From positions 1-32,017 of the forward strand of contig JAHPZE010000038.1 of assembly GCA_019058365.1 (NCBI GenBank): a DNA stretch of 32,017 nt. The letters are read 5' to 3'. This stretch comes from Promethearchaeota archaeon. Lineage in GTDB: Archaea; Asgardarchaeota; Lokiarchaeia; Sigyniarchaeales; SOKP01. Below are positions 16,897 through 24,295 of the stretch, one piece after another. Under the pieces are notes generated by a model. It saw only the letters and a list, made by a program, of their open reading frames with translations, did no database searches and was not told the DNA's origin. Both the position numbers and the translations under genes were made by a program. Positions within the stretch are counted from its first letter, which is position 1. The number at the start of each line of letters is the position of its first letter.

Positions 16897-17211
16897 ATGG
16901 CAAAAGAAAAAGAAACCAATTCTGTTTTCGTAGGCCGCCGTCCAACAATGAACTATGTGATGGCCACTATGATGATCCTTAATAAAGGCGAGGAATGTAC
17001 TGTTAAAGCTCGAGGTAGAGCTATTTCTCATGCTGTCGATGTATGTGAAATCTTGAGAAATCGATTCTTAAAAGGTACAGAATATAGGGACATCAAATTA
17101 AGCACTGAACAATTAGAAGGCGAAAGAATTACCGGGTAGACCGATAATTTCGCATACGGACAAAATAACAACGTCTCAAGCATTGAAATTGTTCTTGCTC
17201 CACCGAAATAA
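16897..17211 (+). CDS. albA: DNA/RNA-binding chromatin protein Alba (Sac10b family); predicted spliced CDS join(16897..17125,17156..17211), 94 aa
   Basis: VFVGRRPTMNYV and KARGRAISHAVDVCE are Alba hallmarks. The conserved last strand NVSSIEIVL lies in the same frame beyond the TAG at 17137-17139 and ends at TAA 17209-17211. Confidence 0.93.
17126..17155 (+). other. Predicted 30-nt bulge-helix-bulge (BHB) intron in alba mRNA
   Basis: Central 4-bp helix GCGA(17120-23)/UCGC(17150-53), 3-nt bulges AA^G(17124-26) and AU^A(17154-56), intron stem AAUUA/UAAUU + CGG/CCG, and outer pair G17119-C17157. Excision is in frame and removes the UAG. Confidence 0.82.
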
Positions 17212-17630: not shown

Positions 17631-17825
17631 ATGGCGAAAAAGGCTTCAGAACCTTTGTATGTTAAATCTAAGGTAAGAGAATTTATTAAGGGTAAAGGGT
17701 GCAACACTAGCAGTGGTGTTCTTGATGGGGAAACTTTAAATGCAATCATAATGGAACATCTTGATAATGCTATAAGACGAGCAAAAGCTAATAATAGAAA
17801 GACAGTAAAGGCAAGAGATTTATAA
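17631..17825 (+). CDS. Histone-fold protein, short-alpha3 type (face-to-face HTkC / Bd0055-like)
   Basis: 64 aa; N-terminal LYVKSKVREFIK and C-terminal RRAKANNRKTVKARDL histone-fold signature; the protein ends right after RDL. GAGGA RBS upstream. Confidence 0.85.
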   Translation: MAKKASEPLYVKSKVREFIKGKGCNTSSGVLDGETLNAIIMEHLDNAIRRAKANNRKTVKARDL

Positions 17826-17889: not shown

Positions 17890-19983
17890 TTAAATAATAA
17901 TTGAAGGTTTTTCATACTTAGCTCGGCTTATTCCTGTAGATAAATCCTTTTCAACAACTATTTTAGAAGTAGATATATCTTGTGGTATTGTGGTATGAGT
18001 AATTAGAAAAATTTGAGAAAATGATTTAGATTTTATTAAATGCTTGAGAATTTGTTCTCTTCGAGTTTCATCCAAAGCTGCTAAAGGTTCATCTAATAGA
18101 AGAAAGTCAACTTTTGGATTTCTTCTTGGTGAATCTTTGGTGGGACGAATAGTACTCATTAATTCTGATATAGCGAGACGTAACGCAATTCCTAAAGCAG
18201 TACGATCTCCGCCTGAAAGGATCTCTGTGGATTCATATTCTCCATTATAATTATCTCTAATTCTAAGAGATAAACCTGTTTTTCTTGTTCCACTTAAATC
18301 AAGTAGTAAATCACTATATTGTCCAGAAGTAAAATCTTTTATATATTTATCAGTGGTTAACGCTATGTTTTTCACTAACCGTTTTACAACCATATATTCA
18401 GTTACAAATCTGCGGACAAATTCTTTTGCTTTATTAATATGATCTATATCAACTTCATATTCCCCGATTTTTTTTGCTAAATCTTTCATTTTTTGAATTT
18501 CATTTTGTAATTTTCCTATTCTTTCTTGATTATTTTGAAGTTTTATCTGTTTTTCCTTTAAATCATTTAGTAAAGCTTTTAGCTCTGTAGAGAATTTCTC
18601 CTTTTCAACTGACAATTTTTTGATCCCTTCAATACGTGAATCCTTAAATTTCGTTCCATTTTTTGAAAGGAAAATTTTTAACTCCATTTCAATTTTTCTT
18701 GATTCGGATTCATATTTTTCATAATTCTGAAAATCATCTTTAAGACCGTGATATATAGTTATGTTTCTTTTAATTTTATCTAATTTATTTTGAAGTGGTT
18801 TAATTTCCTTATCAAAATTAGTTAAAATTTTAGTGATGGAATCAATCTTTTCTTGATTTAAATTTATATCATTAGTGAATTTCATAATCATTTCATTATA
18901 ATGCTCTTTTGTTAACTCATTTTGGCAGGTCGGACATTGTGCAATTTCTTTCCCCTCTTTTCTTATCGTAAACTTTAAACTTTTTTCCATTTTATTCATA
19001 GATTTTTTTATGTCCTCTATTCTTCCCTTTGTTTTCCCTAAACCCTTAAATGTTGCCTCCCTTTTCTTGTCTAATTTATCTTTATTTCTTTGTAGTTTGA
19101 TTTTATTCTCTTCTAATGATCTTATTTTATTAACTATTGTATCTTGAGAATCAAAATCATCAAAATTTAGTTCAGTTTTCTTGATTTTTACTTTGAAATC
19201 ATTTTCATATGATAAGTATTTATCATATGCGATTTTCTTTTGATTATATAAATTTTCTAACTCTGATATTAATTCATTTGAAGGAAAATTCCTAATTTCT
19301 TGTTCAAAAATATCTTTTTTTTTCTCTTTTTCTGTAATAATATCTTTGCATTGATTATTTTCTTTTTCGATATGATTGATATCTTCTTTAATCCTCTCTA
19401 TAGGTACTCTTGATTTTTCAAGATTTTCTTTTTCATATTTTTTTCCTTTAGACTCATTATCTAAAAAAGAAATAGCATCATCAATAATATTCAAGCGAAA
19501 TAAATCAATTAGCATATCTCGTAACTCTGCTCCTTTTTTATTAGCCAATTCTTCTACCTCTCCTTGGCGAACGAAAACAGTACTCATTGCTTGTTCTGAT
19601 GAAATTTCAAAAAATTTTTCAACATTAAAACGTTTTACTTCCTGATAATTCGTCTTATTTTCTGGTAATTCAAATAATTTTGTTGTAATACTTCCTGTTC
19701 TACCCCATTTTCGAAAGATATAATACTTTTTCTTGTCAAGGGTGAAATACACATAGATCTCGGATTTTTGCGCGCCATAGGTTATAAATGAATCTGCGTT
19801 TCTTCCTTTAAAGATCCTCGGTCCAAAAAATGCAAAAAGAATTCCCTCCAAGATTGTTGATTTTCCATAAGAATTTTTTCCGCTTATAAGTATCAGTCCA
19901 TTGGGCAAATCTTCGCCCCCTTTTGGCAAATTTAATTGTTTATAACCCATGAAATTCTTAAAAGTAAGCTTAGTGAGCAACAT
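17890..19983 (-). CDS. rad50: Rad50 DNA double-strand break repair ATPase
   Basis: Walker A GKNSYGKST, Q-loop VRQGE, coiled coils around a CPTC zinc hook, signature LSGGD, Walker B LLLDEP and H-loop ITH. Confidence 0.92.
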   Translation of the reverse strand: MLLTKLTFKNFMGYKQLNLPKGGEDLPNGLILISGKNSYGKSTILEGILFAFFGPRIFKGRNADSFITYGAQKSEIYVYFTLDKKKYYIFRKWGRTGSITTKLFELPENKTNYQEVKRFNVEKFFEISSEQAMSTVFVRQGEVEELANKKGAELRDMLIDLFRLNIIDDAISFLDNESKGKKYEKENLEKSRVPIERIKEDINHIEKENNQCKDIITEKEKKKDIFEQEIRNFPSNELISELENLYNQKKIAYDKYLSYENDFKVKIKKTELNFDDFDSQDTIVNKIRSLEENKIKLQRNKDKLDKKREATFKGLGKTKGRIEDIKKSMNKMEKSLKFTIRKEGKEIAQCPTCQNELTKEHYNEMIMKFTNDINLNQEKIDSITKILTNFDKEIKPLQNKLDKIKRNITIYHGLKDDFQNYEKYESESRKIEMELKIFLSKNGTKFKDSRIEGIKKLSVEKEKFSTELKALLNDLKEKQIKLQNNQERIGKLQNEIQKMKDLAKKIGEYEVDIDHINKAKEFVRRFVTEYMVVKRLVKNIALTTDKYIKDFTSGQYSDLLLDLSGTRKTGLSLRIRDNYNGEYESTEILSGGDRTALGIALRLAISELMSTIRPTKDSPRRNPKVDFLLLDEPLAALDETRREQILKHLIKSKSFSQIFLITHTTIPQDISTSKIVVEKDLSTGISRAKYEKPSIII

Positions 19984-19990
19984 AGATAGG

Positions 19991-21298
19991 CTATACCTCT
20001 TTTTCTTTCTCCATTAGTCTTAGGGCTCTCTTTATCGCGTTCATCCCATAATCAGTTAACTTTTCAATATCATATTCTGTTTCATCTTCACTCAGTTTTT
20101 CTCTCACAAAAGTTTTAAATTCATCATCTGGCTTTTCAAGGATATAATCGAGAATTAATCCTGTACTTAGATCATCTTCAAGAGTTTCAGAAATATCCAA
20201 CACTTTCCAGATTAATTGCAATATGTTATGTTCATCAGGATGAGAAAATAAATTTCTTCGAATTTTAGCCATCATCTCATTAATTTGCCAATTCTTCTCA
20301 AATGTCATTTCACCTTTAATATTTAATTTTAACCTAGCAGATGTCTGATGATTGAAATTCCCTTCTCCCATAAACTTATTTATTTCATTTAAAATGTGGT
20401 TTTCTAGATCTGTAATGGAATATTTAGCTTTAGCATCAATATCTATAATTCCAAATGGTCTCTTTAGTAATTCATCCGTAGAGATTCTTTTCACTATTAA
20501 TTCTCTTGTACTTTCATTAATATCTACAATGAGATAACCTTGATTTTCATACCTTTCTTTGAAATTCAGAGGCAATAACCCTCCCGAATAGTAATGATTT
20601 TTCGATAATTGTTTAAATCCATGTTCATGCCCTAAAGCAACATAATCATAGTTAAAATCATCAGAATTAACTTTGCTGTGTAATGTATCATCGCTCGCAG
20701 AACCGTGAGCTACGGCAATATTAATGTATTCGTTATCCTTTGGTTGTTGGTTTTTTATCCAATTATTATAAGCAGATGTGTAAGTTTCAAAACTTTTAAA
20801 TTCGAAATATGGAAATAAATAGAATCTTACTTTCTTATCAGCGAATTCTAAGGATAATGGAATATTTGATTTAATGGCTCTTATTAGATCTCGCTCTTTA
20901 AAATAATATAGGTTTGGATATTGATCTTTATTAAGATGTGATTCTAAGGGAGTATATTCATATCCCCGAAAAACTCCATGATTTCCTTCAATATATATAA
21001 ATGGAATTTGATTTTTTGTATTATCAAAAAAAATTTGTAAACCTTGTATTAAAATTCTTCTTGCGGGTTCAGGAGGGGGATATGAACTATATTGAGAAGG
21101 ATGGTGAAAAATATCTCCACAGTGAACAAGAAAATCAATGTCTTTAATTTTAGAAATTTGTTCCATGACAGATAAAAAGCAATCATAAATTTCTTGTTCA
21201 TAAGGTTTTGAATAATTCTCTATTGCCCATTTATTAATTGTTCCTCTCCTTGCTTTATAACCAAGATGAGTATCTGCCATATGAATTAATTTTACCAT
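19991..21298 (-). CDS. mre11: Mre11 nuclease (calcineurin-like phosphoesterase)
   Basis: Contains ADTHLG, GDIFH, EGNHG, AHG and YVALGHEH; directly upstream of rad50. Confidence 0.9.
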   Translation of the reverse strand: MVKLIHMADTHLGYKARRGTINKWAIENYSKPYEQEIYDCFLSVMEQISKIKDIDFLVHCGDIFHHPSQYSSYPPPEPARRILIQGLQIFFDNTKNQIPFIYIEGNHGVFRGYEYTPLESHLNKDQYPNLYYFKERDLIRAIKSNIPLSLEFADKKVRFYLFPYFEFKSFETYTSAYNNWIKNQQPKDNEYINIAVAHGSASDDTLHSKVNSDDFNYDYVALGHEHGFKQLSKNHYYSGGLLPLNFKERYENQGYLIVDINESTRELIVKRISTDELLKRPFGIIDIDAKAKYSITDLENHILNEINKFMGEGNFNHQTSARLKLNIKGEMTFEKNWQINEMMAKIRRNLFSHPDEHNILQLIWKVLDISETLEDDLSTGLILDYILEKPDDEFKTFVREKLSEDETEYDIEKLTDYGMNAIKRALRLMEKEKEV

Positions 21299-21310
21299 TA
21301 TTTCACCTTT

Positions 21311-22525
21311 TTATACTCCTAATACTTTATGCCTCCATGATTCGGAATATTTTTTAGTTCTTTCATCATATTTTAATTCTTGGAACTTACTTTCTAATTT
21401 GTTATATTCAGAAACTAATAATGTACTTGCTTCGTGAGCTCCTTTTAAACATAAAGGATATCCTCTGGGGGAATAGGGCATTATATTCTGTAATATATAT
21501 TTTGCATCTTTTGTATCTAAGAAATCTGGTACGTCAAATCTTAGTGCTGCGCTATTTTCTTGAATTCTAGCGATATATGCCTTACTTTTAGTATACGCTG
21601 AAAGATCAGGCATTTCTACCAAGAAATTTTTTTCCTTCATAATTTCTGACCAAATTGGTAAAATAAAATTACCTTGAGCATCCCTTAATCTGCAAGTTTT
21701 AGAAATAGTATAATAATTTATATTATAAGATTCAACAAATTTAAAAAAGAATTTAGTAAAAGCTTGTGGTGGAAAAATATGATGCCGGAACATTTGAATA
21801 CCATCACCTAGGAATACAACGTTTTCAACTTTCCCCCAATTACTTTCCTCTTTAATTCTTATAAGTGATTTCAAAATCTCATCAGCGGTTCTTATTCTAT
21901 CAACTACATGCTTTATAGAAGGGTAATAAAATGCATGGTTATCTATAGCATTCTTTATTTTGTTACTAAAAGTAGTTTCATACCATTCTTCTAATTCATC
22001 AATAAAATTTTTCAGATCTCCAATATAGAAGAATTTTTTAATTGCTTTCACAAAGTTTTCAATAACAGTTTGGTAAATGATTAATTTATGTTCGTTATCT
22101 TCAATATAAGTAGTAATTGGTTTATACATTATTTTTTCAATATTATATTTTCCATCTGTAAGAGTAATTTGACCCTCTCCAAATTTAAATGATCCTAATA
22201 TAGCATAAGTTCCAGGTAATGTATTTGAACTCTCATCAAACCCAATAATTTTAAACGCCTTATCTACATAATCATTTAAATGCTTTTCAATTCTTATATG
22301 AGGCATTTTACTAAAGTGAGCCCCCATATTTCTAAGTTTTTCTTCAGCACTGCTAGTAGGATCAGGATCTTCTAACTCTTTTTTTTCTTCTTCTGTCCAT
22401 GTAATCTTATTAGACTTAATAAAATCCATAAATTCTTTAATGTCAGGATTAAGAGATTCTTCCGGTCGATTATTCATCGACTCTTCCAATGATATTAATT
22501 CAAAATCAAATGAAATTAAAATCAC
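21311..22525 (-). CDS. nurA: NurA 5'-3' nuclease (start may be ATG 22477)
   Basis: Contains IIGFDESS, FLGDG, ISKT and the NurA-typical C-terminal GYPLCLKGAHEAS; lies between herA and mre11. Confidence 0.82.
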   Translation of the reverse strand: MILISFDFELISLEESMNNRPEESLNPDIKEFMDFIKSNKITWTEEEKKELEDPDPTSSAEEKLRNMGAHFSKMPHIRIEKHLNDYVDKAFKIIGFDESSNTLPGTYAILGSFKFGEGQITLTDGKYNIEKIMYKPITTYIEDNEHKLIIYQTVIENFVKAIKKFFYIGDLKNFIDELEEWYETTFSNKIKNAIDNHAFYYPSIKHVVDRIRTADEILKSLIRIKEESNWGKVENVVFLGDGIQMFRHHIFPPQAFTKFFFKFVESYNINYYTISKTCRLRDAQGNFILPIWSEIMKEKNFLVEMPDLSAYTKSKAYIARIQENSAALRFDVPDFLDTKDAKYILQNIMPYSPRGYPLCLKGAHEASTLLVSEYNKLESKFQELKYDERTKKYSESWRHKVLGV

Positions 22526-22543
22526 CCAATATAATTATCAAAA

Positions 22544-24295
22544 TCAAGGAAGTCCTGTTGGAGGAGGACTTAGATTTATTTCTCTCATTTTTTTAGAAAA
22601 ATCCTCATAAAAGGATTTTGAAGTAGTTTCAAAATAATCATCATATAGAGGAATTTTAAGTTTTTGGAAGTTAGTGAGCCAAATTCCTGAGATTAATGCA
22701 ATTCCAACTGTACCAGTAAGAGATTCAAGATCACTTTGTTGAACTCCACCACCAATACTCCGTGCAGCTACTTGTTTTTCTTTGTCAGATCTCAATGGCA
22801 AATTAATTACAGTATTCATATTTGATAATATTGTGTCATCTATAGGGGAATATTGTTGGGATATTACTTCAAGAGCTAAATTAAACTTTCTTCCCTGACG
22901 AGAAATGTCTTTGAACACATTACTAAATCTCATCATTTCTGGTCTTAATATACTAGGTGCCTCTTCAATTGTAAATATAATTATTGGTAAATCAGTTGGG
23001 TCCTTAACTTCCTTTCCACTTTTAATATATAATTTATCAATTGAGTTTTCATAATTTTTATAGAAATTTTCAGGTAAAGTTTGTTTAAGTTTTGTTTTTA
23101 ATGTGTCAATATCCGTAGATGATTTTAAAGCTTTTCTAATGTCAAATAGGGTCCTGGCTAACACACTATTGAACAAAAACTGCTCTAAATCTGAGATCAT
23201 GGACACATTAAATATTATTATACCACCTTTTTCTAACTTTTTCACTATCTCTGGTAATTTGCTACTTGCGTTAGATCGAAACATCTCAGAATATTCTAAC
23301 CAAGTAAGTCTCCTTCTTACAGCCGCCATAGTTGGATCACTATGCCCTCCACGTAAGGGAGAATATCCTTCTGTTAAGAGATTCTCAATATATTCTTCAT
23401 GGTTCTCACTATATGCAGAATGAACCGCACCTACTTGTAAATCATTAAAAGTTCCTGTAGCGTATAAGTCAACCGGTTTTATTTCTTGATAATTTATAAT
23501 ACAAGGTTGAGCCATACTTTTTATTGGAGCCGGAGGTACTCCTTTATTAGGATAAAGATAAAACCAACTTCCAATAAGCTTTTTATTATAATCTGCAGCT
23601 TTACAAATATCATTAACTCCATATTTTATACATCCTAAAGCATATTCGTCATGCATATCAATCGCTAACATAGAGATCTTTGTTCCCTTTCCCTTTAAAA
23701 TAACATGTGCATTATGCTGCAGGAGGCCATCAAGAAAAACTTGGTTTAAATTCGATTTCCCAGTACCTGTTGCTCCGGCAATGAAAAAATGATACATTAG
23801 ATATTTATAGGGGAAATAGACATTTACATTGGCTTCAGATGCCAATGAACCCATATACACACCATCAGGAGTAAATATGGTCTCTAAATAGTGAGCTTTA
23901 TCATCTTGAATCTCAGAGATTTTCATTGAATGGGGTTTTAATACACCCTTCTCCATAATATCTTCAATAAGAAAGAAAATATTTGTAGTGAAATTTTTTA
24001 CTTTTTTAGACTTCTTATCTCTCTCCATGAGAATTATCGGGCGTCCTTGAATCACATATAGTAATTCAGTTTCAAGTTCTGCGGTAATATATTCTGTCAT
24101 TTTAACATTCTTTAACTTTTGCCGAGTCATTATATAGTCTTGAATAGTATATTCTTTTAGAATTTGGATTATTATTGTATAGTCTTTCTTTTCGGTTTTA
24201 TCTTCAGCCTCTAATTTAACAAACCCATGAAGATGTACATAATTCTCATAAAATATTTCAATAACGCTTTCTGTTGGATTTATTCTAATTATCAT
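22544..24295 (-). CDS. herA: HerA bipolar DNA helicase/translocase (FtsK-HerA ATPase)
   Basis: Walker A HFFIAGATGTGKSN, IDMHDEY, Walker B IEEA, arginine finger RQGRKF, ISQ. Confidence 0.9.
   Translation of the reverse strand: MIIRINPTESVIEIFYENYVHLHGFVKLEAEDKTEKKDYTIIIQILKEYTIQDYIMTRQKLKNVKMTEYITAELETELLYVIQGRPIILMERDKKSKKVKNFTTNIFFLIEDIMEKGVLKPHSMKISEIQDDKAHYLETIFTPDGVYMGSLASEANVNVYFPYKYLMYHFFIAGATGTGKSNLNQVFLDGLLQHNAHVILKGKGTKISMLAIDMHDEYALGCIKYGVNDICKAADYNKKLIGSWFYLYPNKGVPPAPIKSMAQPCIINYQEIKPVDLYATGTFNDLQVGAVHSAYSENHEEYIENLLTEGYSPLRGGHSDPTMAAVRRRLTWLEYSEMFRSNASSKLPEIVKKLEKGGIIIFNVSMISDLEQFLFNSVLARTLFDIRKALKSSTDIDTLKTKLKQTLPENFYKNYENSIDKLYIKSGKEVKDPTDLPIIIFTIEEAPSILRPEMMRFSNVFKDISRQGRKFNLALEVISQQYSPIDDTILSNMNTVINLPLRSDKEKQVAARSIGGGVQQSDLESLTGTVGIALISGIWLTNFQKLKIPLYDDYFETTSKSFYEDFSKKMREINLSPPPTGLP

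What the first reader, a model, noticed from the sequence alone, without database searches (positions are those of the whole stretch)
17101..17211. BHB-type mRNA intron interrupting the Alba chromatin gene in a probable Asgard archaeon
Seen in sequence: the ORF track stops Alba at TAG 17137-39, yet the conserved last beta-strand (NVSSIEIVL) continues in the same frame to TAA 17209-11. The intervening RNA can fold as a bulge-helix-bulge: 4-bp helix GCGA(17120-23)/UCGC(17150-53), 3-nt bulges AAG(17124-26) and AUA(17154-56), an inner stem AAUUA-C-CGG/CCG-A-UAAUU with the UAG in the GUAGA loop, and an outer pair G17119-C17157. Established: the archaeal splicing endonuclease EndA cuts after the second nucleotide of each bulge and RtcB ligates the exons; the classic protein-coding example is crenarchaeal cbf5. 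Applying that rule gives exactly 30 nt (17126-17155) and the junction GGC GAA A|AC GGA, reading EQLEGENGQNNNVSSIEIVLAPPK, a normal-length 94-aa Alba. Inference: this archaeon splices an mRNA with tRNA-type machinery, mechanistically reminiscent of IRE1/RtcB splicing of XBP1. Gene callers would mis-annotate it as truncated. Weak point: the helix immediately outside the second bulge is only one base pair. I cannot confirm from here whether this has already been described.
Basis: partly seen in the sequence, partly recalled or inferred. Interest (0 to 1): 0.95.

Follow-up and report, generated by a model that had tools for sequence, protein, structure and literature searches.

The report
tRNA-type mini-intron in Asgard alba gene
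The chromatin gene alba of this Lokiarchaeon (an Asgard archaeon) is broken by a 30-base insert shaped like a tRNA intron, one of at least 13 in its protein genes, including RNA polymerase, so it almost certainly splices mRNAs with its tRNA-splicing enzymes, which the papers I could search show inside an archaeal coding sequence for only one gene (cbf5).

Summary
Confirmed. A 30-nt insert (17126-17155) with an in-frame TAG splits alba. All 29 same-genus orthologues read lack it, and only the bulge-helix-bulge (BHB) cut register restores their sequence. The motif is relaxed: a strong 4-bp central helix and inner stem, but only one outer pair. Two unrelated alba lineages carry homologous 29- and 31-nt introns at the same base, with compensatory stem changes; a fourth lineage carries a different intron one base upstream. 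The genome has at least 13 such 28-37-nt introns in 11 protein genes, among them the single-copy RNA polymerase A'. All carry stops or shift the frame, which excludes stop recoding. Over 19 sites, 70 of 76 central-helix positions pair, against 41 expected by permutation. Two EndA subunits and RtcB are encoded. No RNA data could be obtained, so splicing is inferred (about 0.9). The alba intron seems to have arrived on a short recombination tract, and another intron sits beside a free-standing LAGLIDADG gene. I found no paper on Asgard mRNA introns, but this scan has already reported the same class on other Asgard DNA. The XBP1-like regulation idea is untested.

The parts
16897..17125 (+). alba exon 1 (codons 1-76 plus the first base of codon 77)
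   Evidence: PF01918 hit, E 1e-16; 92-97% identical to same-genus orthologues
17126..17155 (+). 30-nt relaxed-BHB intron, phase 1, with in-frame TAG
   Evidence: absent from 29 of 29 orthologues; unique register; homologues at the same base in L260 and L261
17156..17211 (+). alba exon 2 (rest of codon 77 to TAA); encodes the whole last beta-strand, residues 80-91
   Evidence: AlphaFold model of the intron-less orthologue, pLDDT 91; only synonymous differences from the nearest relatives
17120..17123 (+). exon strand of the central helix (GCGA); uses the rare synonymous codon GGC
   Evidence: pairing probability 0.87-0.98; GGC in 3 of 3 carriers of this intron against 6 of 110 other alba genes
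17124..17126 (+). 5' bulge AA^G, predicted 5' cut at 17125/17126
   Evidence: BHB rule; restores the orthologue sequence
17127..17149 (+). inner (intron) stem-loop; TAG 17137-17139 lies in the loop
   Evidence: two pairs changed on both sides among three homologous introns
17150..17153 (+). intron strand of the central helix (UCGC)
17154..17157 (+). 3' bulge AU^A (cut at 17155/17156) and C17157, which gives the single outer pair with G17119
   Evidence: AAC (not AAT) at codon 77 in all three carriers
17120..17208 (+). probable short recombination tract that brought in the intron (inferred)
   Evidence: against the nearest intron-less relative L268: 8 of 59 exon bases differ here, 5 of 199 upstream; Fisher p 0.002 on a post hoc split; all 8 synonymous

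Best explanation
The insert is a true protein-spliced intron of the archaeal tRNA type in alba mRNA. Shown: it is an exact 30-nt insertion at the tip of the beta3-beta4 hairpin; if retained it ends the protein before its last strand; it folds with exon 1 into a relaxed BHB (4-bp helix, 3-nt bulges, inner stem, one outer pair). Inferred: the two-subunit splicing endonuclease EndA cuts after the second base of each bulge, RtcB joins the exons, and the mRNA encodes normal 94-aa Alba. It belongs to a class of about 30-nt ORF-less BHB introns scattered through conserved motifs of protein genes in this Lokiarchaeia family, with the same size and AA/AU 3' end as many of the genome's tRNA introns. More speculative: the introns move between lineages by DNA recombination, at least sometimes driven by neighbouring free-standing homing endonucleases, and persist because only exact removal restores the gene.
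For: 29 of 29 orthologues lack the insert and fix the register. Homologous introns sit at the same base in L260 (31 nt) and L261 (29 nt, frameshifting) with compensatory stem changes, and a different one sits one base upstream in L262-264. At least 13 introns occur in 11 genes of this genome, including single-copy RpoA'. 70 of 76 central-helix positions pair over 19 sites, against a permutation mean of 40.7 and a maximum of 59 in 200,000; for the first 8 sites 29 of 32, p 5e-5. Among indels processed identically, 11 of 19 frame-breaking ones look like BHB against 3 of 29 stop-free in-frame ones. The RpoA' site-237 intron covaries across 5 genomes: 7 of 11 pairs changed on both sides, one of them an exon wobble base. 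EndA x2 and RtcB are present. Exon 2 shows only synonymous change.
Against: The outer helix is one pair and is not predicted to form, and the 5' bulge can slip. An intact second alba paralogue exists (C43), so alba alone is not proven essential. Only three homologous alba introns are in hand, so their covariation is not significant on its own (52 of 500 shuffles reach it). Registers tied by homology were broken in favour of the best BHB, which inflates the pooled statistic somewhat. No homing endonuclease lies next to alba.
Confidence: 0.9

Rival explanations
1. Translational bypass: the ribosome hops over the hairpin (as in T4 gene 60) and the mRNA is never cut.
For: The inserts are hairpins with stops, and one neighbours a homing endonuclease gene, as in phage cases (own knowledge).
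Against: The alba junction lies inside a codon (phase 1) and the class uses all three phases; take-off and landing codons do not match. Exon-intron pairing in BHB geometry is kept by compensatory change, which hopping would not need.
Confidence: 0.03
2. Stop read-through or recoding (pyrrolysine, TAG reassignment) gives a 104-aa Alba with a longer hairpin loop.
For: The alba insert is in frame and lies in a loop that might tolerate extra residues.
Against: No PylS above the cut-off. TAG ends 279 long ORFs in this genome. Sister introns use TAA, TAG and TGA or shift the frame, including the homologous alba intron in L261. None of 120 homologous proteins has a ten-residue loop extension.
Confidence: 0.02
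3. This alba copy is a recent pseudogene: the insert is not (or poorly) removed and the second Alba covers for it.
For: An intact paralogue exists on C43; the outer helix is weak; the insert is missing from a close relative, so it may be recent here.
Against: Exon 2 carries only synonymous changes and is intact in all four intron-bearing lineages. The same class interrupts single-copy RpoA' and uL11.
Confidence: 0.04
4. Assembly or sequencing artefact.
Against: A Logan assembly is identical. Related but diverged introns occur at the same base in unrelated samples. The insert matches nothing else in the genome.
Confidence: 0.01

Closest known systems
cbf5 pre-mRNA intron of Crenarchaeota (Watanabe 2002; Yokobori 2009, PMC2738675)
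   Same: Short ORF-less intron inside a coding sequence, bounded by an 'unconventional' BHB, cut between the second and third bulge base by a hetero-oligomeric EndA; patchy presence among relatives.
   Different: cbf5 is one gene and one site, with spliced cDNA shown. Here there are at least 13 introns in 11 unrelated genes of one genome, several per gene in uL11 and RpoA', in an Asgard lineage, and no cDNA yet.
Haloferax volcanii HVO_1309 BHB intron (PMC7714728)
   Same: An mRNA substrate of the splicing endonuclease.
   Different: It lies in the 5' UTR and does not interrupt a reading frame. That paper (2020) names cbf5 as the only other mRNA case.
Non-canonical tRNA introns of Asgard archaea (bioRxiv 10.64898/2026.10.13.758758) and of this genome
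   Same: Same BHB type, repeated gains, two-subunit EndA. This genome's tRNA introns include many of 27-32 nt ending in AA.
   Different: That study covers tRNA genes only (no occurrence of 'mRNA' or 'cbf5'). The mRNA introns here match no tRNA intron sequence of the genome.
Collaborative homing of free-standing homing endonucleases and ORF-less introns in phages (PMC2988022)
   Same: An ORF-less intron in a conserved motif with a free-standing LAGLIDADG gene next door: acyl-CoA dehydrogenase locus C46, where both are missing from the syntenic G006 locus.
   Different: The phage cases are self-splicing group I introns. No endonuclease lies beside alba, and cleavage specificity was not tested.
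IRE1/RtcB splicing of XBP1 and HAC1 (PMC13149111)
   Same: Protein endonuclease plus ligase removes a short intron from an mRNA without a spliceosome.
   Different: Different nuclease and recognition (two stem-loops), and stress-regulated. No homology or regulation is shown here.

Membership tests
Archaeal BHB (EndA-spliced) introns, relaxed HBh' type | 4-bp central helix between exon 1 end and intron 3' end | tested here: met
   GCGA/UCGC, probability 0.87-0.98; conserved in L260 and L261
Archaeal BHB (EndA-spliced) introns, relaxed HBh' type | 3-nt bulge followed by an intron-internal helix | tested here: met
   AAG bulge then an 8-pair stem; a slipped form of equal energy exists; compensatory changes
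Archaeal BHB (EndA-spliced) introns, relaxed HBh' type | Cutting after the second base of each bulge restores the host gene | tested here: met
   only register that gives the orthologue residues
Archaeal BHB (EndA-spliced) introns, relaxed HBh' type | Host encodes a two-subunit EndA and RtcB | tested here: met
   two TIGR00324 hits above cut-off, one RtcB; assembly into a heterotetramer and substrate range are inferred
Archaeal BHB (EndA-spliced) introns, relaxed HBh' type | Spliced RNA or EndA cleavage demonstrated | not testable with these tools
Strict canonical hBHBh' motif | Stable exon-exon outer helix of two or more pairs closing the second bulge | tested here: not met
   one pair only, probability about 0.005; not filed as the strict form
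Self-splicing group I or II introns | Catalytic RNA core, far longer than 30 nt | tested here: not met
   30 nt; no Rfam match at E <= 1
Pyrrolysine or TAG recoding | PylS in the genome and TAG-only interruptions | tested here: not met
   no PylS above cut-off; mixed stops and frameshifts
Collaborative homing unit | Free-standing homing endonuclease gene beside the intron | tested here: not met
   none beside alba; met for the C46 acyl-CoA dehydrogenase intron
Collaborative homing unit | The endonuclease cuts the intron-less allele and spares the intron-bearing one | not testable with these tools
   needs a cleavage assay

The most novel reading that the evidence does not exclude
One family of Lokiarchaeia routinely splices a dozen or more mRNAs per genome, including those for RNA polymerase, a ribosomal protein and chromatin, with its tRNA-splicing enzymes. 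The 30-nt introns spread sideways by short recombination events, some driven by homing endonucleases, and stack up with micro-exons as short as 4 nt that must be spliced in order: an intron-proliferation system in protein genes of the archaeal relatives of eukaryotes, independent of the spliceosome.
Probability: 0.75. Interest if true: 0.9.

Novelty: new variant of a known kind. Interest (0 to 1): 0.8.

Why it matters
In the papers I could search, archaeal coding-sequence introns are confirmed for one gene. If these are spliced, mRNA splicing is routine in a lineage close to eukaryotes, and EndA/RtcB become necessary for making core proteins. It gives a living case of introns spreading through protein genes in a cell without a nucleus, where ribosomes can meet unspliced RNA; the in-frame stops in all eight 30-nt introns scored may relate to that. 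In practice, gene callers truncate or split these genes (the 80-aa Alba fragment is already in public protein sets), which biases Asgard gene inventories, marker-gene trees and metabolic reconstructions. One metatranscriptome can test it.

Tried and rejected
A motif-only BHB scan was useless as a finder: about 10,800 loose hits, and 518 after ORF-joining filters, mostly noise. No source for the alba intron was found in its own genome, tRNA introns included, nor in viral contigs; the metagenome pattern scan found no other carrier. No reverse transcriptase (RVT_1) was found in this genome, so loss through cDNA is unsupported. One origin of the three site-229 carriers with vertical descent only was rejected (p-AU 0.0085 on a short 252-nt alignment that includes the junction codons). 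L265 (P0114) looks like a truncation or foreign insertion, not a BHB intron. C26:106599 (30 nt, no stop, ArsR-type gene) is ambiguous and was not counted. Nine literature searches found no report of Asgard mRNA introns (107 was on homing); subscription journals are largely not covered.

Full report
Observation. The alba frame (PF01918) starts at 16897 and stops at TAG 17137-39, while the conserved last strand follows in the same frame to TAA 17209-11. GCGA 17120-23 pairs with UCGC 17150-53 (probabilities 0.87-0.98), and an inner stem holds the TAG in its loop. The outer pair G17119-C17157 is barely populated and the 5' bulge can slip, so this is a relaxed HBh' motif, not a strict hBHBh'. The fold alone is weak evidence (z about -2; loose BHB patterns are common). 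A Logan assembly reproduces 10,737 nt of the window without a mismatch.

Organism. Relatives found with a same-genus protein are labelled Promethearchaeota (Lokiarchaeota), so the Asgard guess holds. The genome encodes two EndA subunits above the TIGR00324 cut-off and one RtcB, and its tRNA genes carry many 27-37-nt introns, often ending in AA.

The insert is exact. All 29 same-genus orthologues read lack it and read EGE(N/D)GQ. Of twelve sliding 30-nt deletions only 17126-17155, the one the BHB rule predicts, gives those residues. In a model of the intron-less orthologue (pLDDT 91) the junction lies in the loop between strands 62-74 and 80-91, so the unspliced product lacks the last strand. 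Exon 2 differs from close relatives only at synonymous sites.

Other alba genes carry introns here. Among 120 homologous proteins three more break at this loop. Their DNA shows a 31-nt intron (L260) and a frameshifting 29-nt intron (L261) at the same base, and an unrelated 30-nt intron one base upstream (L262-264). The first two align with the window's intron; 95% of cells pair and two stem pairs changed on both sides (three rows are too few for significance). All three use the exon codons GGC and AAC, which supply the central G-C pair and the outer pair; GGC occurs in 6 of 110 other alba genes. The carriers are not one clade (p-AU 0.0085); the window and L260 each have a close intron-less relative.

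It is a class. A comparison with the related genome G006 that did not use the motif to find gaps (about 1.7 Mb of aligned coding sequence) found 30-32-nt inserts in RNA polymerase A', AMP phosphorylase, acetoacetate-CoA ligase, an LsrF-like aldolase, an acyl-CoA dehydrogenase, a JAMM protease and an 88-aa ORF. The six in named genes lie in conserved motifs; each of the seven has a stop or shifts the frame and is removed cleanly at a BHB register. Leads from earlier scan notes, checked here, add three introns in uL11 and one each in RNase HII and mevalonate kinase, some shared with G006. That gives at least 13 introns in 11 genes; G006 has two more of its own. RpoA' is single-copy here, so the class cannot be all pseudogenes. 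Over 19 sites 70 of 76 central-helix positions pair, against 40.7 on permutation (maximum 59 in 200,000), and 18 of 19 introns end in AA or AU; stop-free in-frame indels treated the same way rarely look like this. Across 85 rpoA' loci (five of them duplicates) the site-237 intron recurs with 7 of 11 pairs changed on both sides, one involving an exon wobble base. In two genomes a second intron follows after a 4-nt exon, and its central helix is complete only once the first is removed. About 30 of 114 AMP phosphorylase matches in this family have internal stops, most with 30 extra bases, against none in 23 genomes of other families (DNA not read). Five genomes of other families, three of them single-contig, show no stops in RpoA' or RNase HII; if the cultured strains are among them (my inference from genome size), that may be why the class was missed.

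Mechanism. Shown: exact insert, BHB geometry, enzymes present, selection on the pairing and on exon 2. Inferred from established EndA chemistry (PMC2738675): cleavage after the second base of each bulge, ligation by RtcB, translation of 94-aa Alba. I put this at 0.9. Recoding is excluded by mixed stops, frameshifts and the lack of PylS. Hopping, pseudogene and artefact readings share the remainder.

How it arrived (more tentative). Against its nearest intron-less relative L268 the window differs at 5 of 199 bases upstream but at 8 of 59 from the central helix to the stop, all synonymous (p 0.002, post hoc), and the downstream spacer is colinear. This fits import of the intron on a short recombination tract. 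No homing endonuclease is next to alba, but a 482-aa double-motif LAGLIDADG gene directly follows the intron-bearing acyl-CoA dehydrogenase, and both are missing at the syntenic G006 locus. That resembles collaborative homing in phages (PMC2988022). I looked for such a gene because an earlier scan note mentioned one.

Comparison with what is known. It works like, and meets every sequence-testable feature of, relaxed BHB introns; the closest case is crenarchaeal cbf5. A 2020 paper names cbf5 and a Haloferax 5' UTR intron as the only mRNA cases (PMC7714728), and an October 2026 preprint on Asgard introns treats tRNA genes only. I found no paper on Asgard mRNA introns, within a library that lacks most subscription journals. 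This scan has, however, already noted the same class in several other Asgard genomes and elsewhere in this one; those are unchecked AI notes except where I tested them.

Verdict. Real feature; first reading supported; a new variant of a known kind because of its scale, its essential hosts and its apparent lateral spread. Interest 0.8. The missing step is a junction read.

Noticed in passing
L246:10238-10306 and L249:10238-10306 (rpoA'): Two introns (30 and 35 nt) separated by a 4-nt exon; the second gains its full central helix only after the first is removed, which suggests ordered splicing.
   Followed up: partly
L252:9088 and L253:2894 (rpoA', site 241): 85-nt BHB insert with several internal hairpins, possibly nested introns.
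   Followed up: no
G000 C46:49119-50564 (+): Free-standing 482-aa double-motif LAGLIDADG gene right after the intron-bearing acyl-CoA dehydrogenase; absent, like the intron, at the syntenic G006 locus.
   Followed up: partly
G000 C35:94654-95286 (-): A second free-standing LAGLIDADG-like ORF (211 aa) near short stretches that match G006 closely, perhaps RNA genes; target not examined.
   Followed up: no
G000 C35:56271-59600 (+): A 1110-aa ORF with an internal LAGLIDADG domain, probably an intein-bearing protein.
   Followed up: no
L260:5208-5276: 19-nt tandem duplication of the exon end just before the 31-nt alba intron; either an assembly error or a case where only a 50-nt excision restores the frame.
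   Followed up: partly
G069:C64:14250-14552 and G067:C5:48345-48566: Two more same-genus alba genes look interrupted (30 extra bases with a TAA; match ends at residue 77); DNA not available.
   Followed up: partly
window 17631-17825 (+): 64-aa histone-like gene with a short C-terminus and no Pfam or NCBIfam hit, directly after alba, with a similar GAGG leader.
   Followed up: no
window 17890-24295 (-): herA and nurA (Pfam hits) with mre11- and rad50-like genes (by sequence features) converge on the alba-histone pair.
   Followed up: no
G000 C26:106599 (+): 30-nt in-frame insert without a stop, ending in AA with a weak BHB, near the end of an ArsR-type gene; possible stop-free intron.
   Followed up: partly
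G000 C34:39130-39280 (-): uL11 has three introns (37, 36, 28 nt) within 150 nt; Pfam matches suggest that many genomes of the genus are split at these sites.
   Followed up: yes
G000 tRNA genes (e.g. C35, C39): ARAGORN finds only 29 tRNA genes and misnames many because of non-canonical 27-37-nt introns.
   Followed up: partly
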